Of a stretch of DNA of 64,000 nt, positions 20,698 to 64,000 are shown piece by piece. The notes beneath the pieces are model-generated. The model was not told where the DNA came from, ran no database searches, and was given only the letters and a program-made list of their open reading frames with translations. This DNA comes from Anaerolineae bacterium. GTDB taxonomy: Bacteria > Chloroflexota > Anaerolineae > Epilineales > Epilineaceae. The translations under genes and the position numbers were made by a program. Location: NCBI GenBank assembly GCA_038913135.1, contig JBCLES010000010.1, forward strand, positions 4,298 to 68,297, in the 5' to 3' direction. The stretch's first letter is position 1. The number at the start of each line of letters is the position of its first letter.

Positions 20698-21758
20698 ACG
20701 AGACGATGATCGGCGGAACTTTAGCGAAGTCTTCGATGGGATCCGCGCCGGCACCGACGGATACGGTCCTCGCGACGCCAGGACATGGATCGGCAGTCAT
20801 CGGCGGGGACGGGATGCTCGGGCGGGCAATCATGGCCGAGCTGAAGCGTGCGGGCGCTAGTTGTCGGAGTTGTACGGCACCGGCATCGCCCGCCGCGTCG
20901 GGCGAACTGCGCCGGGGTCTACAGACCGATTGTCCCGCGACCGTGTACTGGTCGCTTCCGGAGCGTGCCGGGATCGGGCGACACCGCCTGCAGCCGGCTT
21001 CGCTTGCCGTTCACGCGATGGCGTCGTTCATCGACATTTTAGACGCGTGTCGCGGCGTTGGCGTGGCACGTTTGGTGAACGTCGTGCCGCACTGCGCATA
21101 CCCCGGAGAAGGAGAGGTGCCGCTGCAGGAATCGGCGCTGTGGGACGGCCCGCCGGATCGAGGACTGTTGGCATACGGATCCGCTATGCGGACAACTATC
21201 GCTCTGGCAGAGGCGGCCCGTGCAGAGCATGGTCTGTTGACGCTTTCGGTGATCGTCACGGGCCTCTACGGCCCGGGCGATGTATTTGACACGGCGGAAG
21301 GCCAAGTGGTCGGGGCGATGGTGCGCCGGTTCGATGAAGCCGCGCGTTCCGGTGACGAGCGTGTGCGATGTTGGGGAGACGGGACCGCGGAGCGAGAGCT
21401 GCTCTTCGTTGACGACGCCGCTCGCGGGATCATCGCGCTTTCGACCGTGCCGGATGAGGAGGTCTCGGCGTGGCCCGAGGCCATTGTCAACATAGGCGGC
21501 TTGCACTCCGGAGCCGTTGTAGTTTCTACAACTGAGCTCGCCGAGGCGGTCGCTGCTGCCGTCGGTTACAGCGGGCGCATCGAGTGGGATGCTGCGGCGC
21601 CGAGTGGCAGGGCCCGCGTCGCTCTCGACGATACCCGCTTGTCGAGCCTGATTCGCGAGCAGCCGCCCCGCCCGCTGGAGGACGGGTTGGCGAGGACCGT
21701 AGCCGATTATCGGCGGCACGTTATTGTCGCCGGGCATCCTGCGGCCGCTTCCACGTGA
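20694..21758 (+). CDS. NAD-dependent epimerase/dehydratase family protein (GDP-fucose-synthase-like)
   Basis: Rossmann motif VIGGDGMLGRAI. The later region VTGLYGPGDVFDTAEGQVVGAMVRRFDEA...RCWGDGTAERELLFVDDAARG resembles Fcl/WcaG-type enzymes. The GTG at 20694 overlaps the upstream stop (GTGA). Confidence 0.65.
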   Translation: MNETMIGGTLAKSSMGSAPAPTDTVLATPGHGSAVIGGDGMLGRAIMAELKRAGASCRSCTAPASPAASGELRRGLQTDCPATVYWSLPERAGIGRHRLQPASLAVHAMASFIDILDACRGVGVARLVNVVPHCAYPGEGEVPLQESALWDGPPDRGLLAYGSAMRTTIALAEAARAEHGLLTLSVIVTGLYGPGDVFDTAEGQVVGAMVRRFDEAARSGDERVRCWGDGTAERELLFVDDAARGIIALSTVPDEEVSAWPEAIVNIGGLHSGAVVVSTTELAEAVAAAVGYSGRIEWDAAAPSGRARVALDDTRLSSLIREQPPRPLEDGLARTVADYRRHVIVAGHPAAAST

Positions 21759-23500
21759 AGGCCACACGCCCGCGGGTCATAATCGTACCGACGCTCGAAG
21801 AGGCAGCGACCATCGGCGAGTGCCTCAAGGCCCTCGCCGCGCTGCACGATTGCGACGTCCTGGTCATCGACGACTCTTCTCAGGACGGTACGGCTGACAT
21901 CGCCCGCAGCTTTGCCGGCAACCATCAGAGCGTGCTCGTATCGGTACGAGCAGGTGTGGCTGCGCGGCCAGGACTCGGAAATGCGCTGCGCTACGCCTTC
22001 GACCTCGCCGCCGAGCTCGGCTACCGTGCTGCATGCGTTTTCGACTCCGATCTGCAGCAACGCCCTTCGGACGCCCGACGCCTACTCGACGGGGTCGAGT
22101 ACGGTGCGGATGTGGCGGTAGGGTCGAGGTGGATGGACCCGAACGATATCGGCGCGGGGGTCGTGGCCGGGTCGAGGTGGATGGGCATCGACGATGTCGG
22201 CGCGGAGGTCGTGGCCAGGCCGAGGTGGATGGCGACGGATTATGTCGATTCGCAGGCGACTCGATCAAGCCGCTTCGCCTCCGCGCTACTGCGACGGATC
22301 TTCGGCGTTCCGTGGCGCGACGCGACGACGGACTTCATGGCCATCCGACTGGAGTGCTGGACGCCGGAACTGTCTACCGCCGTTCGAGCAGGCGGATTGT
22401 TCGCGGCGTTCGAGATCCGGTGGCGTATCGCCCATGCCGGCGGCATCGTCGTCGAACATGCCGCACCTTGTCGGCCGCGTGCCGCCGGGCGCGCGCATGG
22501 GGGCTGGAAGCGGACGGGGGGCTGGGCGCTGGACGTCCTCCGGTTGGCGCGCGAGGTTCTCAGCCAAACGTCGGAAACAGCAAAGCAAAGTGAGCCTTTC
22601 GCGCACCAGCAGGCGTCAAGAATCGCGCCGGCGGTTTCGATGGAGGCGACGTCACGGTTCGCGGCGGCGGCTCCGAGCGCGGCGGCGACGGCGAATAAAG
22701 CGGCGTGCGACAACCTGGCAAGCGACGGTCGACGGATCAGTGTCGGCGAGCCCGATCCTGCATTGGACAGCGGCGCCGAGTCAAGAGGCGCCGAGTCAGC
22801 TACCGCGGTTCCCGGTGCCACTCCATCCGACAACTCGCCCGGCCCGGAGCGCGTCGCAAGGCTGATTGCGGCCGGCGTACCGTTGAAGCTGCATTTGGCG
22901 TGTGGCAAGCGGTTCATCCCGGGCTGGGTGCACGTCGATGTTGACGACTGGCCGCATGTTGACCTCGTGCAAGCCGTCGAGCGCTTGCCGTTTCCGGATG
23001 CTTCAGCGGCGGTGATCTACAACTGCCATCAGATCGCCTATTTCGATCGCGTGACCGTGCTGGATGTGCTGGCTGAGTGGCGGCGTGTACTCCAGCCCGG
23101 CGGGATATTGCGAATCGCGACCGCCGACTTCCAAGCCGTTGCAGCAGAATACGCGCTCGGCCGGACGCTCGAGTCGTTCGACGGGCTGATCCACGGTCGC
23201 TATCCCATCCGAGCTTCGAGCGCACGCCGACTCGGCCTGGATACCGCCGCCGCCAACAGTGCCGCCGGAAACGGTCGAGACGGACTACCGATTCCCATCT
23301 TCTACCACACGACATACGACTTCGAAACGCTGCGCGCGGCGCTCGAGCGAGCGGGCTTCCTGGACGTTCACCGCTACGACTGGCGCTCGACGGAGCATGC
23401 CTTGGTCGATGATTACTCGCAGGCCTATTTACCGCACATGGATAAGGACAATGGTCGGCTGATGAGCCTGAACGTCGAAACGCGGAAGCCAACCGAGTGA
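21755..23500 (+). CDS. Fusion protein: GT2 glycosyltransferase (N-terminal) plus class I SAM-dependent methyltransferase (C-terminal)
   Basis: N-terminal VIIVPTLEEAATIGECL...VIDDSSQDGT...FDSDLQ (GT2/DPM1-like). C-terminal LHLACGKRFIPGWVHVDV...VLQPGGILRIATAD (methyltransferase type 11-like). A single uninterrupted frame whose GTG start overlaps the upstream stop. Confidence 0.7.
   Translation: MKATRPRVIIVPTLEEAATIGECLKALAALHDCDVLVIDDSSQDGTADIARSFAGNHQSVLVSVRAGVAARPGLGNALRYAFDLAAELGYRAACVFDSDLQQRPSDARRLLDGVEYGADVAVGSRWMDPNDIGAGVVAGSRWMGIDDVGAEVVARPRWMATDYVDSQATRSSRFASALLRRIFGVPWRDATTDFMAIRLECWTPELSTAVRAGGLFAAFEIRWRIAHAGGIVVEHAAPCRPRAAGRAHGGWKRTGGWALDVLRLAREVLSQTSETAKQSEPFAHQQASRIAPAVSMEATSRFAAAAPSAAATANKAACDNLASDGRRISVGEPDPALDSGAESRGAESATAVPGATPSDNSPGPERVARLIAAGVPLKLHLACGKRFIPGWVHVDVDDWPHVDLVQAVERLPFPDASAAVIYNCHQIAYFDRVTVLDVLAEWRRVLQPGGILRIATADFQAVAAEYALGRTLESFDGLIHGRYPIRASSARRLGLDTAAANSAAGNGRDGLPIPIFYHTTYDFETLRAALERAGFLDVHRYDWRSTEHALVDDYSQAYLPHMDKDNGRLMSLNVETRKPTE
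22121..22238 (+). repeat. In-frame 48-bp tandem repeat (about 2.5 copies) inside the GT2 domain
   Basis: Units at 22121-22168 and 22169-22216 plus a partial third, encoding GSRWMDPNDIGAGVVA / GSRWMGIDDVGAEVVA / RPRWMATDYVDS. Confidence 0.85.
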
Positions 23501-25176
23501 ATAGCCTCGACCACGCGTCAGCCGGCCGAGGGGAGAAGATAGCGCGCGTTCCCGATCGCGCACCGCGGCTGACCTCGACAATCGTCATTCTGGTGGCGGC
23601 AGGCATAACCTGGACGGCGGCCGCGGCTTATGCGGCTTCGGCTTTCGAGTTGGCGACTCTGGGGCAGGATGTGGAACTCGGCTTCGCCGACGCGGTAATG
23701 GCCGACGCCGCGAGTTGGCGCTTCGCCGGTCAGCCAATATACGGCACTCTCGCCGTCGGCTACGCCGGGCCGCCGTATGCGCCAGGCATGCCGTTGCTCG
23801 TCGGTGTGCTGATGGGCATCCGACTGTGGAGTGGCTGGCCGCTCCTGGTCACATACGCCTGCGGCCTCGCCCTCATCCCCCTATCGATGTTCGCTTTGCG
23901 CGGCACTTCCCCTGTCACGGCAAGCGCTAGACGCAACGTCGCCGCACTGACCACCGCCCTTGCACCGGCCCACCTCGTCGCCGTTCCGCTCGTGGTGCCA
24001 CTTTCGCTTCTGCACGAAGGCAGGGCGGACCTCATGTCATGGGTGTTGGCGATGCTGGCGGTGGTTATTGCGGATCGAGCGGCGGGAGCTGCGGACCGAG
24101 CGGCCGGAGCGGCGGGCGCAGCTGGCGTTGCGGCCGGTCTAGGATTCGCGTTCAAGCAGACGGCCGGGATCGCGATAGTGGCTGTCGTTGTGGCCGGGCT
24201 GTGGCGTCGCGGGCCGGCGTTTCGACAACTCCTGCCGTTTCTCGTTGGGGCGGGGGCCGTCGGGGTTGCGGTCGTGGGCGGTGTGATGCTGAACTCCGGT
24301 CAGGTGGGAGTTCACGCACTCCTCTTCGACGGCCCCGTGTTCGACCGTGCGATCGGCTGGGCGCCTGCGCTCGCAGCGCTGGTCGTCTTCGTTGGGCCGG
24401 CGGTATTGGCGTGGGTGGTATCGCAGGCGATAGTCCGCCGCGCCGTTGGGGTGGCCGCTTGGAGGGCAGGGTTGCGTGAGCACGCCGCGGTCATTGCCTT
24501 GGCGGTGGTCGGCATGCCCGCCGCGGCGGCACTACTGCGCTTCGACGGCTCTGACAGCAATCAGATGATCGGCATCGCTCTGGCTTGGACTTGGTCAATG
24601 GCACGCACGGCTCGCACGGCTGCCGCCGCGTCCGCGCATGGCGCAGCGGCGTCCGTCGTGTGCATGCTGGGGCTGGCCGTTTTCATTTCACCCCCATGGC
24701 AGCGGGCGGCTCAAACCATCCTGTCGGGCTTTGACCGCACTGAACCGATCTCGGCGGGGACGGTTTTCCGGCGGGTGTCACCCGCCACTACGACGGATCT
24801 CGCCCGCTTCGCACAGCCCGATGCGGTCGCGCTGGTGTGCGGCCAGGAGGCGGCGCGATGGTCCGAAGCTTCCTTCTACGACGCGCGCAAGCCCTATCGA
24901 GACGCGGTACGCACCGGCCGAATCGTTCCTGGAATCATCGGTTTGGTCGACGGATACGCGATCGGCCGCGGCCCGGCCACGCCGCTGCTCGCGGCGATCC
25001 GTGGTCGGCACTTCGCGTGCATCGTCGAGCCCGAGCTGCTCGATCGGCCGACCTGGCTTGAGTACATTGGAGAGCGAGACGCGACTAGCTTCGCGGAACT
25101 CGGGGATGCGGTTCGGGAAGCGTACGAACCGAGCGGGCGGCAATTCGAAGGTCGATCCATCTGGTGGCCGCGGTAG
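23497..25176 (+). CDS. Polytopic integral membrane protein, possibly a GT-C-type glycosyltransferase or glycan polymerase
   Basis: 559 aa with more than 10 predicted hydrophobic helices and a soluble C-terminal domain of about 100 aa. The start overlaps the upstream stop (GTGA). Function is inferred from operon context only. Confidence 0.45.
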   Translation: MNSLDHASAGRGEKIARVPDRAPRLTSTIVILVAAGITWTAAAAYAASAFELATLGQDVELGFADAVMADAASWRFAGQPIYGTLAVGYAGPPYAPGMPLLVGVLMGIRLWSGWPLLVTYACGLALIPLSMFALRGTSPVTASARRNVAALTTALAPAHLVAVPLVVPLSLLHEGRADLMSWVLAMLAVVIADRAAGAADRAAGAAGAAGVAAGLGFAFKQTAGIAIVAVVVAGLWRRGPAFRQLLPFLVGAGAVGVAVVGGVMLNSGQVGVHALLFDGPVFDRAIGWAPALAALVVFVGPAVLAWVVSQAIVRRAVGVAAWRAGLREHAAVIALAVVGMPAAAALLRFDGSDSNQMIGIALAWTWSMARTARTAAAASAHGAAASVVCMLGLAVFISPPWQRAAQTILSGFDRTEPISAGTVFRRVSPATTTDLARFAQPDAVALVCGQEAARWSEASFYDARKPYRDAVRTGRIVPGIIGLVDGYAIGRGPATPLLAAIRGRHFACIVEPELLDRPTWLEYIGERDATSFAELGDAVREAYEPSGRQFEGRSIWWPR

Positions 25177-27737: not shown

Positions 27738-30182
27738 TCATCCGTCCGCAGCACACCGGAACCCGATGTGATCGCTCCGGCCCGTCGCGTCGTACAGAAC
27801 ACGTACTGACGACCGGAGCAGAGCCTCGCTGTTCAACCAACTCCCGCCTCGGATGATCCACGTGTCGGTTCCGTTCTCCTGCGTCTGCCCATCGCTTGTC
27901 CACTCCCACACGTTGCCGGCCATGTCGAGAATGCCCCAAGGACTGGCGCCGTCGTCCATGAGACCGACCGAACGAGTGTGGACACTGCCGGGCACGGCGG
28001 TAACTCCGAAGTGCGCTCTGCCTTCGGCCGGCTCGTCACCCCACGGATAGTTTCGGCCTTCGGTTCCTCGGGCCGCTTTCTCCCACTCAAGCTCGGTGGG
28101 CAGCCGTCGTCGGGTCCATGCGCAATAGGTAAATGCATCGAACCAACTCACTTGGACCACCGGGTGGCGCATGAGATCGGTCGCGTCAGTCTCGAGACCG
28201 CGCGGATTGCGCCACGTCGCGCCCGCGACCGGAACCCAGCCGTCACCTTCACGCACAAAACCCACGTCCTGAGCTTCGGCGATCGTCACGTGACCGGTCT
28301 CGTCGACAAAGCGCTGGAATCGTTCATTGGTGACTTCGGTCCGATCGATCCAGAAGCCGCCGATCTCACGGCTCCCTTGCTCGAGGGCACCTTCCGAAAG
28401 CACTGTGCCGTCGTCGCCGATCGGGTCGCCCGCGATGAATGACCCCGCGGGGACGAAGACTTCGATCTCCACGTCAAAGGCTATCCGCGTAGAGCCGCCG
28501 GACGGAACCGTAGCGGGCACGGTCGAACCCTGCGCCGGTGATGTTGTTCCGTCAGTTTCGCCGGTTGGCGGCTCTACCGCGCCATCTCCGGGCTTGGATC
28601 GCGAGCCACCGCGCGCTCCGAAGACTTCGTTCGAAGGATCATCCACCTCGCCTCCCAGCAAACCTACAAACGACGGCGACTCAATCCGCGGACGGCGGAA
28701 TGGGCTTTCCGGGCGCGTAGCTGTTTCGTCGGCGCCCGTCGCAAGCGCTTTGAGTCGTGAACCAAGCGGCACAGCGAGGCCGGCCAGAATGACGATAGTC
28801 GCCAATCCCAAAGTACCGACAAGTACTCGTGGGTCGACCGATCGCGTTTCGTTCGCCTTCGAAGTCGCGGGCATCTCGATTGACTCGGCCCCGTCGACCA
28901 AATCGGCAGCGTCGACTGTGTCGATGACGTCGTCGGCGTCGATAGCATTGATTCCGTCAACTCTATCGTTCTCCGAAATGCCGCGCGCGTCTCGACGTCG
29001 CCTGATACTTTCTCCCGGCCGCACATCTCGTCCGACCGAGCGCGATCGGGCAGCGTCACGGGCGACAGACCAGCGAAGGCTCGATCGGCCGGCTGAGACT
29101 CGAACCTCGTCATTGGCAGTATCGCCGGAGGCAGGCTCATCAATGCCGGACGACGGCTCGCGACTGCCGGACGACGGTTCGCGACCGCTAGGTGACCGCT
29201 CGCTTCCTCGGGTACTTCCCTCGCGAGTCCATTCGGGCGAAGCGACGTGACGCTGAATGCCCGTTCGCTCCGGACTTCGTACCCGATCAGATGAGAGCAC
29301 ACCGGCGCCGTCGAGCGCTTCCGCGAAAGATGCGGCGCTCGACCATCGATCCGCTGGACGTGTCTCCAGCGCTTTCAAGAGCGCCTGCTCTATCAACTGC
29401 GCACTCCATGGACCGATCGACCCTTCAATCGCCGCCGCGGCCGAAAGCGCATCCGAGGACGCGACCGAAGGCGCGACCGACGACGCTGCCGAGCTGTCGA
29501 CATCTGACCCATACCGCCCGGTCGAGTTCGGCATCGGCTGCGCGCCCGTCAAGAGGTGAAAGAGCGTTGCCCCGGCGCCGTACACGTCGGCGCTGAAGTC
29601 GCCGGCCCTGCCCTCCGGCGGGCGATACGGGCGAAGGTCAGGACGGATCGGTCCGCCCGCTTCCGGCGGAGAAAACGGATTGGCGTGCCGATTAGCGCCG
29701 AATCCGACCAGCACCGGTCCGGCATCCGCCGACAATATGATATTGGCCGGTCTAACATCCAGATGAGCTACTGCATGCGGCGCGCCCGTGTGCAACGCAT
29801 GGATCGCCTTGAGCACGGTACGCATCCAGCCGAGAGCGCGCTCCGGTGTGACCGAACCCGGCATTGAAGCCAGAAGGTCTCTAAGGCTTGGGCCGGCGAC
29901 AAACTCGGTGATGAGCCAAATGGCCTCGTGCTCCTCGAACACGTCGTAGACTGTGACGAGCGCGGGGTGGGAGACTATGGCCATACCGGAGGCGTCATGA
30001 AAGTAGCGTCGGCGACGCGCGGCATCGGCCGAATGGAAGCCGAGCGCCACGCACGTGCGGCCTGCCAGCTGTGTGTCGGAAACCAGCTGGACATCGCCTC
30101 CGCGTCCGAGTGGCTTCTGAACCGCGTAACGACCGCCGATAAGCATGCCGGGCTCGATCAACATCGGATTCCTCCGACGCAC
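27738..30182 (-). CDS. Transmembrane protein: N-terminal Ser/Thr-kinase-like (apparently degenerate) domain, one TM helix, C-terminal FGE/SUMF1-like domain
   Basis: Kinase fold: [17 protein letters not shown] ... [11 protein letters not shown] ... YRPPE ... [17 protein letters not shown] helix: [21 protein letters not shown]-terminal [16 protein letters not shown]...[17 protein letters not shown]...[14 protein letters not shown]...GNVWEWTSD...IIRGGSW...IGFRCA is the FGE-sulfatase fold. Confidence 0.85.
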
Positions 30183-30345
30183 TTGCCCCGCGGGCGGGCG
30201 GGCGGCGATAATCCCAGGCGGACCAACTCGGCGATGAGCATCGCGGAACGCTAGCAGTGGGCCAGTTACCGGTCAACGGAAAGTATGAGGTCTGTGTCTG
30301 TGGTAAGTGATCGGACCGGTGAGGTCCTTCAGGGGGGTCGAAGTT

Positions 30346-33300
30346 ATGCATCGCGCCAATGCAGCTCAGATCATCGCTGGCATAACAGCTTTCGCGCTTT
30401 TCGGCTGGGGCACTTGGGCGGCGATTAAGTCCGCCACCGACGAGACCGCTCTAGATTCGAGCACAATCTTCACAGCGCCGCCGCCTAAGGCGAGCGTTGA
30501 TTCGGCCTGCGCCTCACCGGACCCGTTCGTCGCGCTGGCGGTTCACGCCCGAGGCGTCGACGATACCGCGCACTCGCTCACTCCCGCGATCATCGCGCGG
30601 CGGTCGGTCGGAGGTAATTTCGTCTTAGCCACCCAGGGCGAAGTCGGCGCCGTTTACGGGTTAGCGTTCGATCACCGGCGAGGTCACGTTTATGCCGGCG
30701 CTTATCATCGGGTCGGGTTGCCTATCGGACCCGGCGGTTTGGGCCAGATCTATCGGATCGACCTCGAAAGCGGCGATATCACTGCCTGGGCCTCTCTTGA
30801 AGCGGGCGAAGCCCCGTCCGATCCACTCGCTTCGGCGCAGCTCGTCGGCGAAATCGGTCTCGGCGATCTTGAAGTCTCCGAAGACGGCGCCCAACTCTTG
30901 GTCACCAACCTATCCGACCGACGAATCCATCGCTTCGCTCTTCCGGGCGGAGCGCCGCTCGGCAGCGCTGTCACCGGTGGATCTCGCGAAGCGTGGCGCG
31001 AACACGCGCGGCCGTTCGGTCTCGGAGTCCGTGACGGCCAACTCTATCACGGCGTCGTCAAGGCCCGGACCGACATGACCCTCGAGGGCATACTCTTCGA
31101 GGCCTGGGTCTATAAATCGGATCTGGACGGCCGCAACGAAACCGGGCTCATGCGGACTTGGCTCGGCTATTCGCGACTTGTGCCGTGGACACCGTGGGTG
31201 ACCGACGGCTCATTGAAGAGCGAAGATGCGCCGATGTTGGTCGACATCGACTTTCAGCCCAGCGGCGCCCCGATTCTGGGCTTCCGCGATCGCCAGTCGG
31301 ACATGCATCCGGATTGCGTGTGGCGGCCCGGTTGCACGGGTGGAGCGAGCGTGGGCGATATCATTCCCGCGCGGCGGGTTGAGCCAGTTTGGCGCGCCCT
31401 GACTTCCCCGCCCTTCTACGGCGACGCCGGAGCCGGCGGGTTCGATGCCGTCCTCGGTTCGCTCGCTTCCATTGCGGGCCTCGAATTGGTCGCTGCGCCC
31501 TCGCTGCCGCTTTCCGGAATGCCGACCGGGACATCGAACGGCGTTGACGTGATCTGGTTCGACAACATCGGCGGACGGGCCGCCTATGGTTCCCCGATCT
31601 TCGATGCAAGCGCCGACGACACCCTGATCGATGGCCACGCTTCTGCCGGCGACATCGAGGTGCTTTGCGGCCCGCCTGCTGATCCGGACGCCATAGCGGC
31701 CACCGCGACCGAGGCCGCGGCCGGTCCCGCGACCGAAACCGCGGCGGCGAACGCGAGTGCCACTGCCGTGGCAGCGATAGCGACGACCATTGGCCGAGCT
31801 ACCAACCATCCCGCTACCCAAACGGCTCACGCCCCCACCCATATCGCGCGCTCAACGGATGCCGCCGCAACTGCCACCATGCTGGCGCCGACGCTCCAAG
31901 CGGGCGGGCCGACACGCACCGCGGCCGCCACTCACGCCGCGGAGACCGCGACGGCGGCCGCCCCAAGTCTGAAGGGCATCGCGACGCGAGGTGCGATCGA
32001 GCTGACGCGGGTCGCGGCCGAGCCGACTCAGCATCCGGGCACTCCGGCTGCTGCCGGCGCGGCCTATCGGTTGATGAAGTCGCAGTGCGTGGGCGACAAT
32101 CCGCACTTCGTCACAACTTGCTTCGTGCCGGCTTCCGATGGGCGCGGAAATCTTTACGACGAAGATTGGTTCCTGGATCAGCCGGTATTGGTCGCGTTCA
32201 ACGACGCCGACCCTGAGGATCTTTCGCAGCACCTCATGCTCGCCTACGAGCCACAGGTCGGCGCCGTATTCGGGGTCGGGCATGACCTGGAGCGCGAGCA
32301 GATCTACATTTCCGCCTACAACAAGCGCCTTGCATACCTTGGCCCGCTAGGCGCAGGCGGCATCTACCGGATCGATCTGCCCACGGGACGTGTTGAACCG
32401 TGGGCGTGGCTGGACGCCGGCCTGGATCCGCACGACATGGGGCGCGGCTTCGACAGCTCCGGCGGTCGCTGGGTCGGCCGCACCGGACTCGGCGACATCG
32501 AAGTCACGGAAGACTTCCGTGAGCTCGTAGCGGTCAACATGTACGACCGGCTCCTTTATCGATTCAGCATCCCTGACGGCAAGCTTCTCGGCGCTTTCCC
32601 GCATGGCGCGGTCGGCGAGGTGTGGGCGGAAGACGCACGGCCGTTCGGCCTTGCCGTGAAGGATGAGTGGCTTTACCACGGACTCGTCGATTCCCGCGAG
32701 ACCGCAGCCGACGATGATCCACGGCTCTTGCAAGCATATGTCTATCGATCCAGAACCGATGGCACCGAGATGTCGGAGGTAGCGCGGATCGACATGTCCT
32801 ACTCTAGGGTGCCGGCGTGGGAAGACTGGCCGGAACGAGACGAGGACGAACCGGTTTCGCCGATGCTCGTCGACATCGCGTTCCGGAACGACGGCGATCT
32901 GGTCGTCGGGTTCCGCGAACGGCGCGGCGACGCGCGGATACTGATCGCCGGCGGCGGCGACATGGTGCTCACAATGCGGGTGGGCGACCGCGACGGCCCT
33001 GAGGAGCGGTACATCGCGCTCACATCGCCCGAGTTTTATCAAGACAATATCCGCCATCCCGAGTCATCGTGGGGAACGCTGACTAGTTTGCGCTGGCTCG
33101 ATCAGGTCATCACGACCGTCATCGATCCATGGGAGATTTGGAGCGGCGGGGCGGCATGGTACGACAACGTCTCGGGCGGGATCGTTCGCCGCGAGACCGT
33201 CTACGCCGGCCGCGACCAATCCTTCGGCAAGACTTCCGGCCTGGGCGACCTCGAATCGCTCTGCGAAGCGCCGACGCCAACGCCGACCTTCACGGCAACG

Positions 33301-34722
33301 CCGCCCGTAAGCACGACGCCGTCGACGGCATCCCCGACTCCGACCGCGACGTCGACCGCGACCCCGACTGTTTCCCGCACGTGGACCATTTACCTGCCAT
33401 ACGGTGAGAACCTGTGCGTGCCGGAGAAGCGCTTCGTGGACGTCGTACTCGTCCTCGATCGCTCGACCTCGATGCTCCGCCCGGTCGTCGAAGGTGGCTT
33501 GGCCAAGAACGAGGCCGCCATCGACGCCGCCGCGCGCTTCATCGAAGAGCTGGCGCTGGAGCCGGATCCGACGGATCCGCTCGGCCGCCACGACAACGTC
33601 GCGCTCGTCGGCTTCAACGACACGGCTTGGACGGAAAGCGAGCTAACCAACAATCGCCCCGCGGCTTACGCGGCTCTCGAGCGGCTGCGCGACAAGACTG
33701 TCGAAGGCACGCGTCTCGACTTGGCTATCGCCCAAGGCCAGGTCCCGCTCGACGGTCCTGGACGAGGTCCGGGCAATCAAGCGGTGATCGTCCTTCTCAC
33801 CGACGGGCTGCCAAATCGGGTGCCTTTCGACGCCTCGAAGGGCGAGCGGCAAGAGGACACGGTCATGCGGGCGGCCGAAGCGGTGAAGGCGGCCGGCAGC
33901 ACCGTATACACCATCGGGCTTGGGACACCGATGGACATCAATCCGCGGCTGCTTATCTCGATGGCGACCGAGCGCTTCAACTACTACTATGCGCCGCTGC
34001 CCGAGGCGCTCGAAGGCATCTATCGCATTATCGCGGACGAGTTCACGTTCTGCGGCCGGGAGAGAGTCCCGCCGCCTGAGCCGTGCATCCCGGAACATGT
34101 CTACGCCGACGTCATGCTGGTCTTGGACATGTCGACCTCGATGCGAAGGACCACGCGCGACGGTCGGCTGAAGTCGGAGGCTGCGCTCGAGGCGGCGAAG
34201 CGTTTCGTAGACGAGCTCGACCTGGAGCGCGACGGCTGGGGGCGGCAGGATCAGGTGGGGATCGTCGGCTTCAACGGCACGGCGTGGACCGAAACGACGC
34301 TGACGGATGATCGGGAGCGGATCCAACTGGCGTTCGAGCGGCTGCCGGACCGGATGGAGGAAGGCACGCGGCTCGATCTCGCGCTGCGGGAAGGTCTGGC
34401 CGCTTGGCATGCCTCCGGACGAATTCCGGAGAATCGACCCGTCATGGTTTTCCTGACCGACGGCCTGCCCAACCAGGTTCCGACGCCGGTGCCTTCGGGC
34501 CGGCAGGAGGACACCGTGTTGGCCGAAGCCGAGCGGGTGAAGGCGGCGGGAATGCGCGTCTTCACGATCGGGCTCGGGCTGCCGGACGATGTCCTGCGCG
34601 AATTGCTCGAAGGTGTAGCTTCGAGTCCGCGCGACCATTACTTCGCGCCGGACGGAGAGGATCTGGCCGATATCTACCGCCAGATCGCGGGGCGGCTCGT
34701 CGAATGTCCGAGGGAGGAGTAA
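30346..34722 (+). CDS. Giant anchored protein (1458 aa): N-terminal TM, a duplicated unknown module, PT linker and two C-terminal vWA domains
   Basis: TM anchor IIAGITAFALFGWGTWAAI. Two homologous modules start at GEVGAVYGLAFD (30637) and PQVGAVFGVGHD (about 32254). PT linker at 33270-33380. vWA MIDAS motifs are VLVLDRSTSM and MLVLDMSTSM. ATG at 30346 with an AGGGGGG RBS. Confidence 0.8.
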   Translation: MHRANAAQIIAGITAFALFGWGTWAAIKSATDETALDSSTIFTAPPPKASVDSACASPDPFVALAVHARGVDDTAHSLTPAIIARRSVGGNFVLATQGEVGAVYGLAFDHRRGHVYAGAYHRVGLPIGPGGLGQIYRIDLESGDITAWASLEAGEAPSDPLASAQLVGEIGLGDLEVSEDGAQLLVTNLSDRRIHRFALPGGAPLGSAVTGGSREAWREHARPFGLGVRDGQLYHGVVKARTDMTLEGILFEAWVYKSDLDGRNETGLMRTWLGYSRLVPWTPWVTDGSLKSEDAPMLVDIDFQPSGAPILGFRDRQSDMHPDCVWRPGCTGGASVGDIIPARRVEPVWRALTSPPFYGDAGAGGFDAVLGSLASIAGLELVAAPSLPLSGMPTGTSNGVDVIWFDNIGGRAAYGSPIFDASADDTLIDGHASAGDIEVLCGPPADPDAIAATATEAAAGPATETAAANASATAVAAIATTIGRATNHPATQTAHAPTHIARSTDAAATATMLAPTLQAGGPTRTAAATHAAETATAAAPSLKGIATRGAIELTRVAAEPTQHPGTPAAAGAAYRLMKSQCVGDNPHFVTTCFVPASDGRGNLYDEDWFLDQPVLVAFNDADPEDLSQHLMLAYEPQVGAVFGVGHDLEREQIYISAYNKRLAYLGPLGAGGIYRIDLPTGRVEPWAWLDAGLDPHDMGRGFDSSGGRWVGRTGLGDIEVTEDFRELVAVNMYDRLLYRFSIPDGKLLGAFPHGAVGEVWAEDARPFGLAVKDEWLYHGLVDSRETAADDDPRLLQAYVYRSRTDGTEMSEVARIDMSYSRVPAWEDWPERDEDEPVSPMLVDIAFRNDGDLVVGFRERRGDARILIAGGGDMVLTMRVGDRDGPEERYIALTSPEFYQDNIRHPESSWGTLTSLRWLDQVITTVIDPWEIWSGGAAWYDNVSGGIVRRETVYAGRDQSFGKTSGLGDLESLCEAPTPTPTFTATPPVSTTPSTASPTPTATSTATPTVSRTWTIYLPYGENLCVPEKRFVDVVLVLDRSTSMLRPVVEGGLAKNEAAIDAAARFIEELALEPDPTDPLGRHDNVALVGFNDTAWTESELTNNRPAAYAALERLRDKTVEGTRLDLAIAQGQVPLDGPGRGPGNQAVIVLLTDGLPNRVPFDASKGERQEDTVMRAAEAVKAAGSTVYTIGLGTPMDINPRLLISMATERFNYYYAPLPEALEGIYRIIADEFTFCGRERVPPPEPCIPEHVYADVMLVLDMSTSMRRTTRDGRLKSEAALEAAKRFVDELDLERDGWGRQDQVGIVGFNGTAWTETTLTDDRERIQLAFERLPDRMEEGTRLDLALREGLAAWHASGRIPENRPVMVFLTDGLPNQVPTPVPSGRQEDTVLAEAERVKAAGMRVFTIGLGLPDDVLRELLEGVASSPRDHYFAPDGEDLADIYRQIAGRLVECPREE

Positions 34723-36062
34723 TGCGCTTCGACGTCATCGGTTTCGGCTCGCGCGGCGACGCACAGCCCATGGCCGCATTGGTCCGCGGTCTTCGGACCG
34801 CCGGACATTCCGCCCGTCTTATCTCGCACTCGAACTTCGCGGATCTGGCCGAACTGCACGGGCTCGACTTCGCCCCGATCGACATCGATACGCGGTCGCT
34901 CGTCGAGAGCGAAGCGGGGCGCGAATGGTTGTCCGGCGGCACCGCTGCCAGACCATTTCTTACGCGCTTCTCGAAACTCATATCCGATGCGATGCATGTC
35001 ACGTTTCGTGACACTTGGTCCGCCATTAATGACGATCCGCCGGACGCTATCGTGGCGAACGGCTCGGCGATCCTGGCCGGGGCATCCATGGCCGAGCGGC
35101 TTGGCGTACCCTTCGCCCGTGCCGAACTCCAGCCGATGGAGTCTACCCGAGCTTTCCCGCCAACGTACGTCGCACCGGCACCTGCTTGGCTGCGATCGAT
35201 CCGTGGGGACGGCTTGTACAACCTTGCAGCCCACGCCTGGAGCGGTCTCACCGTATGGAAGGGAACCCGCGAAGCGACGAACTTGGCGCGCGCCGAGGTG
35301 CTCGGACTACCCCCGTGGAGCTGGACGGCGCCCTTGGGCGCAATGCAACGGCAGGGGTGGCCCATCCTGTGCGCTTTCAGCGAGGCGATCGTCCCCCGGC
35401 CCTTCGAGTGGAGCAAGAACGTCCATGTCACCGGATATTGGACGCTGCCGGCGTCGGATGCTTGGGCGCCGCCAGCAGAGCTTACAGCGTTTCTAGATGC
35501 CGGTCCGAAGCCGATCTGCGTAACCTTCGGCAGCATGCTTGGCCCCGACCCCCAAGCGACGACCGCTGCCGTGCTCGGTGCGATCGAAAGGGTTCAGCGG
35601 CGCGCTATCTTGGTCAGCGGCTGGGGCGGTTTGGCCCAGTCCGACTTGCCGCCGGGTGTCATCTGCATAGATTCGGCGCCGTTCGATTGGCTTTTCCAGC
35701 ATGTCTCAGCTGTCGTTCACCACGCCGGCGCCGGTACGACGGGCGCTGCGCTGCGCGCGGGTCGACCGAGCATCGCCGTTCCACTCTATGCCGACCAACC
35801 ATTCTGGGCGCGCCGAATCCACGAACTCGGCGCTGGCCCCGCCCCGCTCCCGATGCCGACCCTCAGCGCCGAGCCTCTGGCTCTGGCGATAGAGACGGCG
35901 ATCATGGACCCCAAGATCGCTGGTTCGGCGGCTATGCTCGGCGAGCGGATCAGGGCGGAAGATGGCGTTGGCGATGCGATACGCGTGCTCGAGGGGCTCA
36001 TCGAATTGGAGCCGGTATCGCCGGACGACGTCGAAAATGCTCAGCTATCCCCGAAGCCGTAG
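34722..36062 (+). CDS. GT1-family glycosyltransferase (MGT/UGT-like)
   Basis: MRFDVIGFGSRGDAQPMAALVRGL (N-terminal GsrGD.qP motif). The C-terminal HHAGAGTTGAALRAGRPSIAVPLYADQPFWA is like the UDP-glycosyltransferase signature. The start overlaps the upstream stop (TAATG). Confidence 0.8.
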   Translation: MRFDVIGFGSRGDAQPMAALVRGLRTAGHSARLISHSNFADLAELHGLDFAPIDIDTRSLVESEAGREWLSGGTAARPFLTRFSKLISDAMHVTFRDTWSAINDDPPDAIVANGSAILAGASMAERLGVPFARAELQPMESTRAFPPTYVAPAPAWLRSIRGDGLYNLAAHAWSGLTVWKGTREATNLARAEVLGLPPWSWTAPLGAMQRQGWPILCAFSEAIVPRPFEWSKNVHVTGYWTLPASDAWAPPAELTAFLDAGPKPICVTFGSMLGPDPQATTAAVLGAIERVQRRAILVSGWGGLAQSDLPPGVICIDSAPFDWLFQHVSAVVHHAGAGTTGAALRAGRPSIAVPLYADQPFWARRIHELGAGPAPLPMPTLSAEPLALAIETAIMDPKIAGSAAMLGERIRAEDGVGDAIRVLEGLIELEPVSPDDVENAQLSPKP

Positions 36063-37195
36063 AGCTCCGTTTCCGGATGGAAGTCTGACCAGGCAAACCA
36101 GAACACGCTCATCGCAGGAATCTGGTCGAGCGAACTGCCGGCCAGCGGGCCCTCAACGGCCACCCCCGTCCAAGCCATCCATAGCGAACCCGTCTCTTCG
36201 TCGACAACGTATCGTCCGCGGCCGCTGGCGCCTTCCGGTGGATCAGGGTCGCTCCGGAACGTGTAAGCCGTGCCGCCGACACGACGATCGAAGAGCACTG
36301 TCGACGAGACTTCGGGAGCGTGAATCGCCAGAACCGGCACGGCCCCGACCACGTCGTTCACCACGCGCCCTGTTTCGAGAACCTCCCACGGATAGGCCAC
36401 CGGCACGCCTTCGACGACGGCTGCGGTCACCATCGCCTTGGTCGGGAGTCGGCGATCCGGATTCGCTTCTCCGATCACACCGGCGTCAGGTCGTTCGAAG
36501 TAGCCCGCGTATGGATCGCGCCCATCCCAGCCCACGGTTTGCAATGCCTTGGACTCTGGATGAAGCTGCCGCCATTCGCCCCAACTCATTTGGGCATACG
36601 GCACCGGTACAAGCTCGGCGCCTTCGAGCGGTCCTTCGACCGCATGGCCCAGCATTTGGCTCCAATACGACTCAGTCTGGCGATCGTACATCACAAGTGC
36701 GTTCATGATCAGCTTGCCCGAGACGCCGAAGTCGAGCACTTCGCCCTTCACTTCAGGCCGGGCATACACGATGCCCGTGAAGCAAAGCGGTCACCAAGTT
36801 ACTGTGATTGCGCGGCCTCCGACGGAGTCGTTCACGATTTCATGGCGGCTTAGGAATGGGATGGAATAGGCACGAGCCTCGCCATCGAATGCCACACCGA
36901 GCACCAGCATCTCGTCGGGATAATTAGCGCGCGCGTCATCGCCCTCCCAGAACTTCGGTTCGTCGATAGCAGGGATCGCGTCGCGAGGTAGGATATCGAC
37001 CATCTCGTACTCCGGCACGTAGGCCGGCGCGGCTTCCAAGGCGGTTGATCGGTCGTCGGCCATTTGTTGCTCGGACTGACCGCATGCCGACGTCGACACA
37101 GCGACAGCGAAGGCGGCGGCGATCGCTATGGCCGAACGAGGGGATCGAGAGCGCAGCGGTAGCCGAATTGCAGAGATAAGCGGCTCAGCCTTCAT
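36041..37195 (-). CDS. DUF3179 lipoprotein with one in-frame TGA (36791..36793): candidate selenoprotein, or a nonsense pseudogene
   Basis: Track ORFs 36791..37207 and 36041..36769 share one frame and are separated by a single TGA. The joined sequence ...RHEIVNDSVGGRAITVTW-TGA-PLCFTGIVYARPEVKGEVLDFGVSGKLIMNALVMYDRQTESYWSQ is one continuous DUF3179 domain. The N-terminus has a lipoprotein-like signal (AAAFAVAVSTSAC). Confidence 0.7.
36746..36787 (-). promoter_or_regulatory. SECIS-like mRNA hairpin immediately 3' of the in-frame UGA
   Basis: mRNA nt +4..+45 after the UGA: lower stem CUUUGCUUCA/UGAAGUGAAG (10 bp, 2 G-U), a 3-nt bulge GCC on the 3' side, upper stem CGGGCAU/AUGCCCG (7 bp) and apical loop CGUGU that begins 21 nt after the UGA. 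Confidence 0.4.
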
Positions 37196-37325
37196 CGCGT
37201 CCACCACCGGCGTCGAAATTCATCCGTCGCACCCGTCCGCCATGGCGGCATACGCCTTCATCGCCGGCGTCGAAAGTCATCTGTCGCCCTCGCCTACCAT
37301 ATCGGCATACGCCTCCATCGGCGGA
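37188..37325. repeat. Tandem duplication (57- and 66-bp units, about 2.3 copies) spanning the gcvP 3' end and the DUF3179 start
   Basis: Read on the minus strand: ATGGAGGCGTATGCCGATATGG...GACAGATGACTTTCGACGCCGGCG (37318-37262) / ATGAAGGCGTATGCCGCCATGG...GACGGATGAATTTCGACGCCGGTGGTGGACGCG (37261-37196) / ATGAAGGCTGAG... (37195 onward, the DUF3179 start). Confidence 0.8.
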
Positions 37326-63995: not shown

Positions 63996-64000
63996 GCGGT

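What the first reader, a model, noticed from the sequence alone, without database searches (positions are those of the whole stretch)
27738..36062. Divergent three-gene module: pseudokinase-FGE-like receptor <-> giant dual-vWA protein + translationally coupled GT1 glycosyltransferase
The pseudokinase/FGE-like gene (minus strand) and the 1458-aa anchored vWA protein (plus strand) diverge from a 163-bp region (30183-30345). The vWA gene's stop overlaps the start of a GT1 (MGT/UGT-like) glycosyltransferase (TAATG at 34720-34724), which implies co-translation. The vWA protein has long Thr/Ala/Pro-rich stretches (about 31680-32000 and 33270-33380) that would be plausible O-glycosylation targets. 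One hypothesis, which is inference only, is a cell-surface adhesion or sensing module. In it the GT1 enzyme would modify the giant protein or a lipid anchor, and the FGE-like ectodomain would recognise it or its ligand. I know of no described system with this gene combination.
Basis: inference. Interest (0 to 1): 0.6.

Follow-up and report, generated by a model that had tools for sequence, protein, structure and literature searches.

The report
Neighbouring surface-protein, pseudokinase and glycosyltransferase genes
Three real genes sit side by side (a dead-kinase receptor, a large surface protein and a sugar-transferring enzyme), but only a few very close relatives share the arrangement, so it looks like a recent neighbourhood of ordinary genes and not a new three-part system.

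Summary
There are three intact genes, the domain calls are right, and the TAATG stop/start overlap sits at 34720-34724 with a GGAGG ribosome-binding site just upstream.

- **Kinase-like gene:** a predicted pseudokinase (VAIK Lys to Gly, DFG Asp to Gly; the same in two orthologues). Its FGE-like ectodomain lacks both catalytic Cys.
- **"Giant vWA" protein:** signal/anchor, beta-propeller, A/T/P linker, beta-propeller, PT linker, then two MIDAS vWA domains. The about 400-aa propeller has no Pfam match. It occurs in 17 of 17 genomes of the same GTDB family (4-21 hits each) and in 0 of 44 others.
- **GT1:** a soluble enzyme closest to yeast sterol glucosyltransferase UGT51.

The module reading is weak. 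Kinase, vWA and GT1 are adjacent only in a shallow clade (vWA 76-79% identical), where unrelated flanking genes are equally syntenic. The next orthologue (57%) keeps the downstream synteny but has neither GT1 nor kinase. Four more distant orthologues also lack both. The PT linker is present in 50 of 53 homologues whether or not GT1 is nearby. The genome carries 67 vWA segments.

Co-transcription of vWA and GT1 is likely. Functional coupling is unproven.

The parts
27738..30164 (-). Receptor-like pseudokinase with FGE-like ectodomain. It is 808 aa from ATG 30164; the ORF stays open up to GTG 30182.
   Evidence: ORF, translation. Pfam Pkinase plus FGE-sulfatase. The start is inferred from the SD and the orthologue N-termini.
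29355..30122 (-). Kinase-like domain with degenerate catalytic motifs: VALG in place of VAIK, HLD with the Asp kept, and GFG in place of DFG.
   Evidence: phmmer alignment to M. tuberculosis PknB structures. L006 and L045 orthologues carry the same substitutions, whereas the outgroup P0203 has VALK and DFG.
28770..28838 (-). Single transmembrane helix (residues about 449-471) between the kinase-like domain and the ectodomain.
   Evidence: Kyte-Doolittle 19-residue window peaks at 2.51.
27750..28463 (-). FGE-sulfatase-fold (C-type-lectin-like) ectodomain without the catalytic Cys pair. The sequence reads [12 protein letters not shown] where FGE has RGGSYLCHDSYC.
   Evidence: Pfam PF03781, 7.5e-55. 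PDB alignments to pFGE (1y4j) and S. coelicolor FGE.
30165..30345 (.). Divergent intergenic region. It holds a sigma-70-like promoter for the vWA gene (TTGCCC-18-GATAAT, 30183-30212) and a conserved block, GCGGAACGCTAGCAG, at 30243-30257.
   Evidence: Promoter scan, which is not above chance on its own. Both hexamers and the block are conserved in L006 and L045. The block is unique in the genome. No Rfam match.
30346..34722 (+). Secreted or membrane-anchored double-propeller, double-vWA protein of 1458 aa.
30346..30435 (+). N-terminal hydrophobic signal/anchor segment.
   Evidence: Hydropathy peak at residue 9 onwards. The orthologue L045 has a lipobox-like AFAAC at this position.
30478..31668 (+). 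Beta-propeller A. It belongs to an unannotated domain family with no Pfam hit even at E<=10.
   Evidence: AF2 model with pLDDT 92.8 and pTM 0.94, all-beta. Foldseek returns only generic propellers, TMq <= 0.51. Pfam is empty. The representative library holds 1542 relatives at E<=1e-3.
31669..32052 (+). Ala/Thr/Pro-rich linker 1.
   Evidence: Composition scan. An A/T/P-rich stretch is present at this position in most of the 53 homologues scanned.
32053..33264 (+). Beta-propeller B, 35% identical to propeller A.
   Evidence: BLASTP of the two halves against each other, E = 7e-55.
33265..33390 (+). Pro/Thr linker 2.
   Evidence: An equivalent PT stretch is present in 50 of 53 homologues.
33415..34035 (+). 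vWA domain 1 with an intact MIDAS motif (DRSTS...T...D).
   Evidence: Motif read directly from the translation.
34084..34689 (+). vWA domain 2 with an intact MIDAS motif (DMSTS...T...D), 53% identical to vWA domain 1.
34710..34724 (+). Junction GAGGGAGGAG-TA-ATG. The SD lies inside the last vWA codons, the stop TAA (34720-34722) overlaps the GT1 start ATG (34722-34724).
   Evidence: L006 has TGATG at the same junction. L043 has a 38-nt spacer instead.
34722..36062 (+). Soluble GT-B glycosyltransferase of family GT1 (446 aa) of the UGT51 / Gtf type, with a GSRGD motif at residues 9-13.
   Evidence: Pfam. NCBIfam best hit is Rgt at 122.7 bits against a cutoff of 800. PDB best hit is yeast sterol 3-beta-glucosyltransferase, 204 bits. 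No hydrophobic segment. Single copy in the genome.

Best explanation
The locus holds three separately functioning genes that came to lie together in a shallow Caldilineae-type (Chloroflexota) lineage. It is not a dedicated three-component system.

1. **vWA gene.** It encodes an exported, membrane-tethered or secreted binding protein. The protein has two beta-propellers and two metal-dependent (MIDAS) vWA domains, separated by flexible A/T/P-rich spacers. It is one member of a strongly expanded paralogue set restricted to one GTDB family. It most likely acts as an adhesin or ligand-capture protein (inference).
2. **GT1.** It is a cytoplasmic UDP-sugar-dependent GT-B enzyme of the sterol-glucosyltransferase / Gtf type. 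It probably glycosylates a lipophilic small molecule or lipid (inference from its nearest characterised relatives). In this lineage the gene lies directly behind the vWA gene. It is read from the vWA promoter with coupled translation.
3. **Divergent gene.** It encodes a single-pass receptor whose cytoplasmic kinase domain has lost the ATP-anchoring Lys and the metal-binding Asp. Its outer domain is a lectin-like FGE fold with no catalytic Cys. It probably binds an extracellular ligand and signals as a scaffold, not by phosphotransfer (inference).

Shown here: gene structures, domains, motif losses, the propeller fold, the distribution and the synteny pattern. Inferred: all biochemical roles.
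For: **Synteny**
- The trio, or the part of it the contig covers, is present in three close relatives. L006 has vWA 76%, GT1 71% and kinase 48% identity. L045/L046 have vWA 79% and kinase 51%. L043 has GT1 69%.
- In these relatives unrelated flanking genes are just as syntenic: Metallophos, Rce1-like, DUF3179, GcvP.
- L001 (57%) keeps vWA, DUF3179 x2, FG-GAP x2 and GcvP, but tblastn finds no GT1 and no kinase/FGE there.
- L003, L005, L007 and L008 have neither gene.

**Distribution in 60 GTDB relatives**
- GT1 homologues of 40-45% identity are patchy.
- The kinase-FGE protein has no full-length orthologue.
- The propeller domain is in 17 of 17 genomes of the same family, with 4-21 hits each, and in 0 of 44 others. 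The contigs listed for GT1 or FGE hits and for propeller hits do not coincide.

**Own genome**
- 67 vWA segments, about 7 propeller-vWA genes, 4 kinase hits, 13 FGE hits and 1 GT1.
- No other propeller-vWA paralogue shares a contig with a kinase hit.

**Other points**
- GT1 homologues of 45-46% identity sit in unrelated contexts.
- The PT linker is present in 50 of 53 homologues.
- GT1 is soluble and nearest to UGT51, GtfA and GtfB.
Against: - The stop/start overlap with an internal SD is kept in two genomes, so vWA and GT1 are almost certainly co-expressed. That leaves room for a functional link.
- The kinase-vWA divergent pair survived in L006 although insertion sequences replaced the genes on the other side of the kinase.
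- The 181-bp spacer is 76% identical across three genomes although the kinase protein is only 48-51% identical.
- An FGE-like protein (TagR) is known to act on a kinase that carries a periplasmic vWA domain (PpkA) (PMC13713981, PMC3224232). The domain combination therefore has a functional precedent.
- No expression data could be found.
Confidence: 0.7

Rival explanations
1. vWA and GT1 form a functional pair. The co-translated GT1 would glycosylate the adhesin in the cytoplasm before export. Known examples of that logic are the heptosyltransferases encoded beside AIDA-I/TibA, HMW1C beside HMW1, and GtfA/B beside serine-rich adhesins. Alternatively, GT1 would make a glycolipid that anchors or is bound by the vWA protein.
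For: - Stop/start overlap with an SD inside the vWA gene.
- The junction is kept as TGATG in L006, and the two genes are adjacent in L043.
- No promoter-like site was found between the two genes.
- The protein has Thr-rich linkers.
Against: - The linkers predate GT1 and are present in 50 of 53 homologues, including five whose loci lack GT1.
- The orthologue L001 works without GT1 at the same site.
- GT1 is closest to sterol and antibiotic-aglycone transferases, not to any known protein glycosyltransferase family.
- The other roughly six propeller-vWA paralogues have no partner GT1; the gene is single copy.
- L043 has a 38-nt spacer, so strict translational coupling is not conserved.
Confidence: 0.12
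2. The pseudokinase receptor and the vWA protein form a sensing pair. The FGE-like ectodomain would bind a vWA domain (or the ligand the vWA protein captures) and relay this to the cytoplasmic pseudokinase scaffold. This would be a re-partitioned version of the TagR (FGE-like) and PpkA (kinase-TM-vWA) contact in the P. aeruginosa H1-T6SS threonine phosphorylation pathway.
For: - The divergent arrangement is kept in three genomes, including L006, where the other flank of the kinase was replaced by IS elements.
- The intergenic region is well conserved, with a shared promoter and a conserved block.
- The pseudokinase state is conserved across three orthologues, which implies selection for a non-catalytic role.
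- Literature precedent: TagR is an FGE-sulfatase-superfamily protein modelled in contact with the PpkA periplasmic domain (PMC13713981), and that PpkA domain is a vWA domain (PMC3224232).
Against: - The pairing is absent from every orthologue locus outside the shallow clade.
- No full-length orthologue of the pseudokinase exists in 60 related genomes.
- Pfam scans of the neighbouring ORFs on both sides found no PP2C, FHA or T6SS domains, although several short or unmatched ORFs remain unassigned.
- With 67 vWA segments in 3.45 Mb, chance adjacency is not rare.
- No interaction test could be run here.
Confidence: 0.1
3. The full three-gene adhesion/sensing module: GT1 modifies the giant protein or its anchor, and the FGE-like ectodomain recognises that product.
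For: All three genes are adjacent in the window and in L006.
Against: It needs both rival links at once. The set is seen complete in only two closely related genomes and is absent from L001 and from more distant orthologue loci. The topology is also awkward: a cytoplasmic GT1 would have to act on extracytoplasmic targets.
Confidence: 0.04

Closest known systems
Bacterial surface / secreted vWA (MIDAS) proteins, e.g. BatA/BatB-type and pilus-tip or fimbrial vWA adhesins (PDB 4rck, 3ibs, 6tnj, 3tvy)
   Same: It has C-terminal vWA domains with intact DxSxS...T...D MIDAS motifs. It is exported and carries flexible Pro/Thr spacers.
   Different: Two tandem vWA domains are preceded by two copies of an about 400-aa beta-propeller that has no Pfam model. 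That propeller family is confined to one GTDB family among 60 relatives. There is no sortase, PEP-CTERM or pilin signal at the C-terminus (read).
Hanks-type receptor Ser/Thr kinases with a C-terminal FGE-sulfatase domain (the Proteo1-type architecture in the bacterial STK atlas, bioRxiv 10.1101/2025.01.12.632604) and bacterial pseudokinase families described there
   Same: The architecture is kinase fold, one TM helix, FGE-sulfatase ectodomain.
   Different: The VAIK Lys and DFG Asp are lost while the HxD Asp is kept. The lineage is Chloroflexota. Assignment to any of the atlas's seven pseudokinase families was not tested.
TagR / PpkA of the P. aeruginosa H1-T6SS threonine phosphorylation pathway (PMC13713981, PMC3224232)
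   Same: The same three domain types meet at the envelope: an FGE-sulfatase-like domain, a vWA domain and a Hanks kinase fold.
   Different: In the TagR/PpkA system the kinase is active and itself carries the vWA domain, while the FGE-like protein is separate. That locus also includes PppA, Fha1 and T6SS genes. Here the kinase fold is degenerate and carries the FGE-like domain, the vWA protein is separate, and the Pfam scans of neighbouring ORFs found no PP2C, FHA or T6SS domains.
Yeast UGT51 sterol 3-beta-glucosyltransferase and the vancomycin-group GtfA/GtfB/GtfD enzymes (PDB 5xvm, 5gl5, 3h4i, 1iir)
   Same: It is a full-length GT-B / GT1 match (204 bits to UGT51, residues 2-426) with an N-terminal GSRGD motif, and it is soluble.
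   Different: The acceptor is unknown. Scores are far below the NCBIfam equivalog cutoffs for Rgt (122.7 against 800) and MGT (66 against 260). The gene sits behind a surface-protein gene, not in a sterol or antibiotic cluster.
Adhesin plus cytoplasmic glycosyltransferase operons: Aah/TibC heptosyltransferases with AIDA-I/TibA, HMW1C with HMW1, GtfA/B with serine-rich repeat adhesins (from my own knowledge, not checked here)
   Same: A large surface protein gene and a soluble glycosyltransferase gene lie in one transcription unit.
   Different: Those enzymes belong to other families (BAHT, GT41, GT4/GT8). Their pairing is conserved wherever the adhesin occurs. Here the pairing is confined to a shallow clade and the linkers exist without the enzyme.

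Membership tests
Active Hanks-type Ser/Thr protein kinase | Kinase fold (Pfam PF00069 above the gathering score) | tested here: met
   70.7 bits against a cutoff of 31.7. Aligns to PknB residues 10-271.
Active Hanks-type Ser/Thr protein kinase | ATP-anchoring Lys of the beta-3 VAIK motif | tested here: not met
   VALG aligns to VAVK of PknB. The orthologues have VALA and LLG, while the outgroup P0203 has VALK.
Active Hanks-type Ser/Thr protein kinase | Catalytic Asp of the HRD motif | tested here: met
   HLDVRPAN aligns to HRDVKPAN, so the Asp is kept.
Active Hanks-type Ser/Thr protein kinase | Metal-binding Asp of the DFG motif | tested here: not met
   VGFG aligns to V(V/M)DFG of PknB. The same GFG is present in both orthologues, and DFG is present in the outgroup.
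Formylglycine-generating enzyme (FGE/SUMF1) | FGE-sulfatase fold | tested here: met
   PF03781, 186.8 bits, covering 5-254 of 255 profile positions.
Formylglycine-generating enzyme (FGE/SUMF1) | Catalytic (copper-binding) Cys pair | tested here: not met
   [12 protein letters not shown] aligns to RGGSYLCHDSYC of S. coelicolor FGE, so both Cys are absent. The best PDB hit is the inactive pFGE. L006 has RGGGWLNSAALL.
vWA domain with a functional MIDAS site | DxSxS ... T ... D metal-site residues | tested here: met
   DRSTS and DMSTS, EGTRLD, and LTDG are present in both domains. Metal binding itself was not tested.
GT1 (GT-B) UDP-glycosyltransferase | N- and C-terminal Rossmann halves with the nucleotide-sugar-binding C-terminal motif | tested here: met
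   PF06722 at 59.1 bits, PF03033 at 33.5 and PF00201 at 31.2, all above their cutoffs. Full-length alignment to UGT51.
Rifamycin (Rgt) or macrolide (MGT) inactivating glycosyltransferases | NCBIfam equivalog or subfamily score cutoff | tested here: not met
   Rgt 122.7 against 800; MGT 66.1 against 260; OleI 41.9 against 700.
Conserved multi-gene module (kinase-FGE + propeller-vWA + GT1) | Co-localisation in genomes beyond the range where unrelated neighbouring genes are also syntenic | tested here: not met
   The arrangement is present only in L006, L045/46 and L043 (vWA 76-79%). It is absent in L001 (57%), L003, L005, L007 and L008. In 60 GTDB relatives, no contig in the truncated lists of hits is shared.
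Conserved multi-gene module (kinase-FGE + propeller-vWA + GT1) | Co-regulation | not testable with these tools
   Only three DNA runs hold the sequence and there are no RNA runs.
TagR/PpkA-type threonine phosphorylation pathway; TerY-P-type vWA-kinase-PP2C triad | Active kinase with partner PP2C phosphatase and FHA protein in the locus | tested here: not met
   The kinase motifs are degenerate. Pfam scans of neighbouring ORFs in the window found no PP2C or FHA domains.
Diversity-generating retroelement target (FGE/CLec variable protein) | A template repeat nearly identical to the 3' end of the FGE-domain gene | tested here: not met
   blastn of the last 363 nt against the whole assembly finds no copy of the terminal 160 nt. 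The three DGR-type RTs lie on other contigs. The assembly is 77% complete.

The most novel reading that the evidence does not exclude
The pseudokinase receptor and the double-propeller vWA protein could be a split envelope sensor. The lectin-like FGE ectodomain would dock on a MIDAS vWA domain, as TagR does on PpkA. Ligand capture by the surface protein would then be relayed through a catalytically dead kinase scaffold. The co-transcribed GT1 would supply a glycolipid or glycan that tunes this contact. That would make it a Chloroflexota-specific, phosphotransfer-independent relative of the T6SS threonine phosphorylation pathway sensor.
Probability: 0.07. Interest if true: 0.6.

Novelty: new member of a known kind. 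Interest (0 to 1): 0.25.

Why it matters
As a three-gene system it probably does not matter, because the arrangement is a young, lineage-specific neighbourhood. Two by-products are modestly useful.

- **An unannotated propeller domain.** It is a confidently folded, about 400-aa beta-propeller with no Pfam model. It has about 1500 cluster representatives in public data. It is strongly expanded in one Caldilineae-type family and was not detected in its sister families. It is always followed by a PT linker and a vWA domain, so it is a candidate lineage-specific adhesin toolkit. Sixty-seven vWA segments in a 3.45-Mb genome is a lot.
- **A conserved receptor pseudokinase with a lectin-like ectodomain.** This adds a Chloroflexota case to the small list of bacterial pseudokinases.

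If the minority reading were true, that the FGE-like ectodomain contacts a vWA domain as TagR does with PpkA, it would suggest that this domain pairing is a general envelope-sensing device.

Tried and rejected
1. **DGR target.** FGE/CLec domains are classic DGR variable regions, and the genome has three DGR-type reverse transcriptases (C11, C56, C65). The 3' end of this gene has no template-repeat copy anywhere in the assembly. Rejected, with the caveat that the assembly is 77% complete.
2. **Known propeller family.** Pfam gave nothing even at E<=10. The PDB sequence profile matched only the vWA part. Foldseek against PDB and BFVD returned only generic propellers, TMq <= 0.51.
3. **Expression evidence.** Only three DNA metagenome runs hold the sequence and there is no RNA.
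4. **Riboswitch or sRNA in the divergent spacer.** No Rfam match. The conserved 15-mer has no second exact copy in the assembly, only scattered 2-mismatch matches.
5. **A better candidate for linker glycosylation.** The polytopic membrane protein at 23497-25176 lies behind a DegT/SDR/GT2 set and could be a GT-C-type transferase.
   - It has no Pfam, NCBIfam or PDB match.
   - It has no homologue in 60 relatives.
   - The single-sequence AF2 model was unusable, with pLDDT 40.5.
   - Left open.
6. **Technical limits.** The genome search failed with queries longer than 1000 aa and worked with shorter pieces.

Full report
**1. Observation**

The three ORFs are present as described: 27738-30182 (-), 30346-34722 (+; an upstream in-frame GTG lies at 30307) and 34722-36062 (+).

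- Pfam confirms Pkinase (residues 21-276) plus FGE-sulfatase (574-811) for the first gene.
- Pfam finds two VWA domains at the C-terminus of the second gene.
- Pfam finds EryCIII-like_C, Glyco_transf_28 and UDPGT for the third gene.
- The vWA stop TAA (34720-34722) overlaps the GT1 start ATG (34722-34724). It is preceded by GAGGGAGGAG.
- The A/T/P-rich stretches lie at residues 441-560 and 973-1015.

Two corrections follow. The kinase-like gene most probably starts at ATG 30164. GGAGG lies 7 nt upstream, and the database entry and both orthologues start at that Met. The spacer is therefore 181 bp. Also, the "giant" N-terminal 1000 residues are not featureless (see section 2).

**2. The vWA protein**

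The two halves of the N-terminal region align at 35% identity over 366 residues (E = 7e-55). The two vWA domains align at 53%.

The repeated unit was modelled with AlphaFold2 from a 30-sequence alignment. The model is confident (pLDDT 92.8, pTM 0.94) and all-beta. Foldseek matches only generic beta-propellers such as YWTD/LRP, TolB and NHL, with TM <= 0.51.

The domain has no Pfam match even at E<=10 and no PDB sequence match.

The resulting architecture is:
- signal/anchor segment
- propeller A
- A/T/P linker
- propeller B
- PT linker
- VWA1
- VWA2

Both MIDAS motifs are intact. Each propeller starts and ends with an invariant Cys. That fits an extracytoplasmic disulfide (inference).

Homologues are Chloroflexota proteins labelled Caldilineae, Ardenticatenia or Anaerolineae. 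Most are about 1250 aa with one vWA domain.

In 60 GTDB relatives the propeller is found in all 17 genomes of the same family, with 4-21 hits each, and in none of 44 genomes of other families at E<=1e-8. The exhaustive library holds 1542 representatives at E<=1e-3.

The window's own 3.45-Mb, 77%-complete assembly has about 7 propeller-vWA genes and 67 vWA segments. Four vWA genes lie in this window alone.

**3. The kinase-like gene**

Aligned to M. tuberculosis PknB, the VAIK Lys is Gly (VALG). The HRD motif reads HLD with the Asp kept. The DFG motif reads GFG.

The L006 and L045 orthologues carry the same substitutions, while a 37%-identical kinase-FGE outgroup has VALK and DFG. The degenerate state is therefore derived and maintained.

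One TM helix (about 449-471) separates the kinase-like domain from the FGE-fold domain. The FGE-fold domain's best solved relative is the inactive pFGE/SUMF2, and both catalytic Cys are missing.

The kinase-TM-FGE architecture is already described for bacterial STKs (bioRxiv 10.1101/2025.01.12.632604).

Other FGE-domain proteins of this genome are STAND-NTPase fusions on contigs that also carry DGR-type reverse transcriptases. The gene in the window has no template repeat.

**4. GT1**

- It has no hydrophobic segment.
- It is single copy in the genome.
- Its best solved relatives are yeast UGT51 sterol 3-beta-glucosyltransferase (204 bits, full length), then GtfA, GtfB and GtfD.
- NCBIfam hits are far below the equivalog cutoffs.
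- The wider family is very large, with 5640 proteins at E<=1e-40 among the 8000 candidates scored.

A lipophilic small-molecule or lipid acceptor is the most likely substrate (inference).

**5. Is it a module?**

| Locus | vWA identity | Kinase-FGE | GT1 | Notes |
|---|---|---|---|---|
| L006 | 76% | present, divergent (48%) | present (71%), TGATG overlap | followed by DUF3179, FG-GAP x2, GcvP |
| L045/L046 | 79% | present (51%) | contig ends before this site | Metallophos, Rce1-like, kinase-FGE, then vWA divergent |
| L043 | vWA C-terminus only | not covered | present (69%), 38-nt spacer | followed by convergent DUF3179 |
| L001 | 57% | absent | absent | keeps vWA, DUF3179 x2, FG-GAP x2, GcvP |
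| L003, L005, L007, L008 | 49-51% (47% for L005) | absent | absent | unrelated contexts |

In the shallow clade the unrelated housekeeping neighbours are conserved too. The adjacency is therefore what common descent alone predicts.

GT1 homologues of 45-46% identity sit in unrelated contexts. In the 60 GTDB genomes the GT1 and FGE hits do not share contigs with the propeller hits listed. Those lists are truncated, so this is a check at contig level only.

A PT-rich stretch before the vWA domain is present in 50 of 53 homologues, including all five whose loci lack GT1.

**6. What argues the other way**

- Co-transcription and coupled translation of vWA and GT1 are likely. No promoter-like site lies between them.
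- The divergent spacer is 76% identical in three genomes. The TTGCCC-18-GATAAT promoter and a unique GCGGAACGCTAGCAG block are conserved.
- In P. aeruginosa, the FGE-like protein TagR acts on the periplasmic vWA domain of the kinase PpkA (PMC13713981, PMC3224232). An FGE-like to vWA contact therefore has a precedent.

**7. Verdict**

The genes are real and the domain reading is correct. Operon-type linkage of vWA and GT1 is likely. The proposed three-gene adhesion/sensing module is not supported beyond a genus-level clade.

I estimate about 70% for independent genes in a recent juxtaposition. I estimate about 12% for a vWA-GT1 functional pair and about 10% for a pseudokinase-vWA sensing pair. 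I estimate about 4% for the full module.

Novelty is low: new members of known kinds. The side value lies in an unannotated, family-restricted propeller domain and a conserved receptor pseudokinase.

Noticed in passing
window 36041-37207 (-); L001 11954-13186; L006 15722-16906: The DUF3179 gene just downstream of GT1 is one reading frame interrupted by a single TGA inside a W-[TGA]-PLC motif. The same in-frame TGA is present in two relatives. This makes it a selenocysteine candidate. Another note of this scan already flags it.
   Followed up: partly
G000 whole assembly; window 12582-16676, 30346-34722, 47501-49399, 62487-63998: The vWA domain is extremely expanded: 67 tblastn segments in a 3.45-Mb, 77%-complete genome, with four vWA genes in this window alone.
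   Followed up: partly
G000 contigs C11, C56, C65: Three DGR-type reverse transcriptases (IGNLTSQ ... YVDD) lie on the contigs that also carry large STAND/NACHT-type NTPase proteins ending in FGE-sulfatase domains. One of those proteins has an N-terminal adenylate/guanylate-cyclase-like region; that assignment comes from inspecting the sequence, not from a Pfam scan.
   Followed up: partly
window 30243-30257 (extends to about 30238-30280); L006 and L045 spacers: A conserved block, GCGGAACGCTAGCAG, lies about 30 nt downstream of the predicted -10 of the vWA gene. It is invariant in three genomes, has no second exact copy in the assembly, and has no Rfam match. The window also carries a 30-nt insertion right after it. 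It could be an operator or a leader element.
   Followed up: partly
L006 10001-14382: The vWA orthologue in L006 is broken into several frames (851 aa, 108 aa, and so on, then 251 aa). This is either indel errors in the assembly or a pseudogene.
   Followed up: no
L045 3-3566 (-): The orthologue in L045 has a lipobox-like N-terminus (AFAAC), where the window protein has no Cys. Its single visible vWA domain aligns like a VWA1-front / VWA2-back hybrid, which suggests copy-number change by recombination between the tandem vWA domains.
   Followed up: no
window 37208-37276 versus L001 13235-16273 and L006 17066-20080: Two FG-GAP/ASPIC genes, one of them fused to a redoxin domain, lie between DUF3179 and gcvP in both relatives. 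They are missing from the window, where only 70 nt separate the two genes.
   Followed up: no
window 19519-25176: A DegT aminotransferase, an SDR epimerase and a GT2-methyltransferase (AglJ / polyprenyl-phosphate-sugar-synthase-like) are followed by an orphan membrane protein with about 10-11 TM helices (23497-25176). That protein has no family, PDB or relative match. It may be a lipid-linked sugar pathway ending in a GT-C-like transferase, which would be a more natural candidate than GT1 for modifying exported PT linkers.
   Followed up: partly
G008:C36:8813-9973, G013:C4:1799667-1800824, G016:C7:20109-21290: Three kinase homologues in one related genus each carry one in-frame TGA over the same query span.
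   Followed up: no
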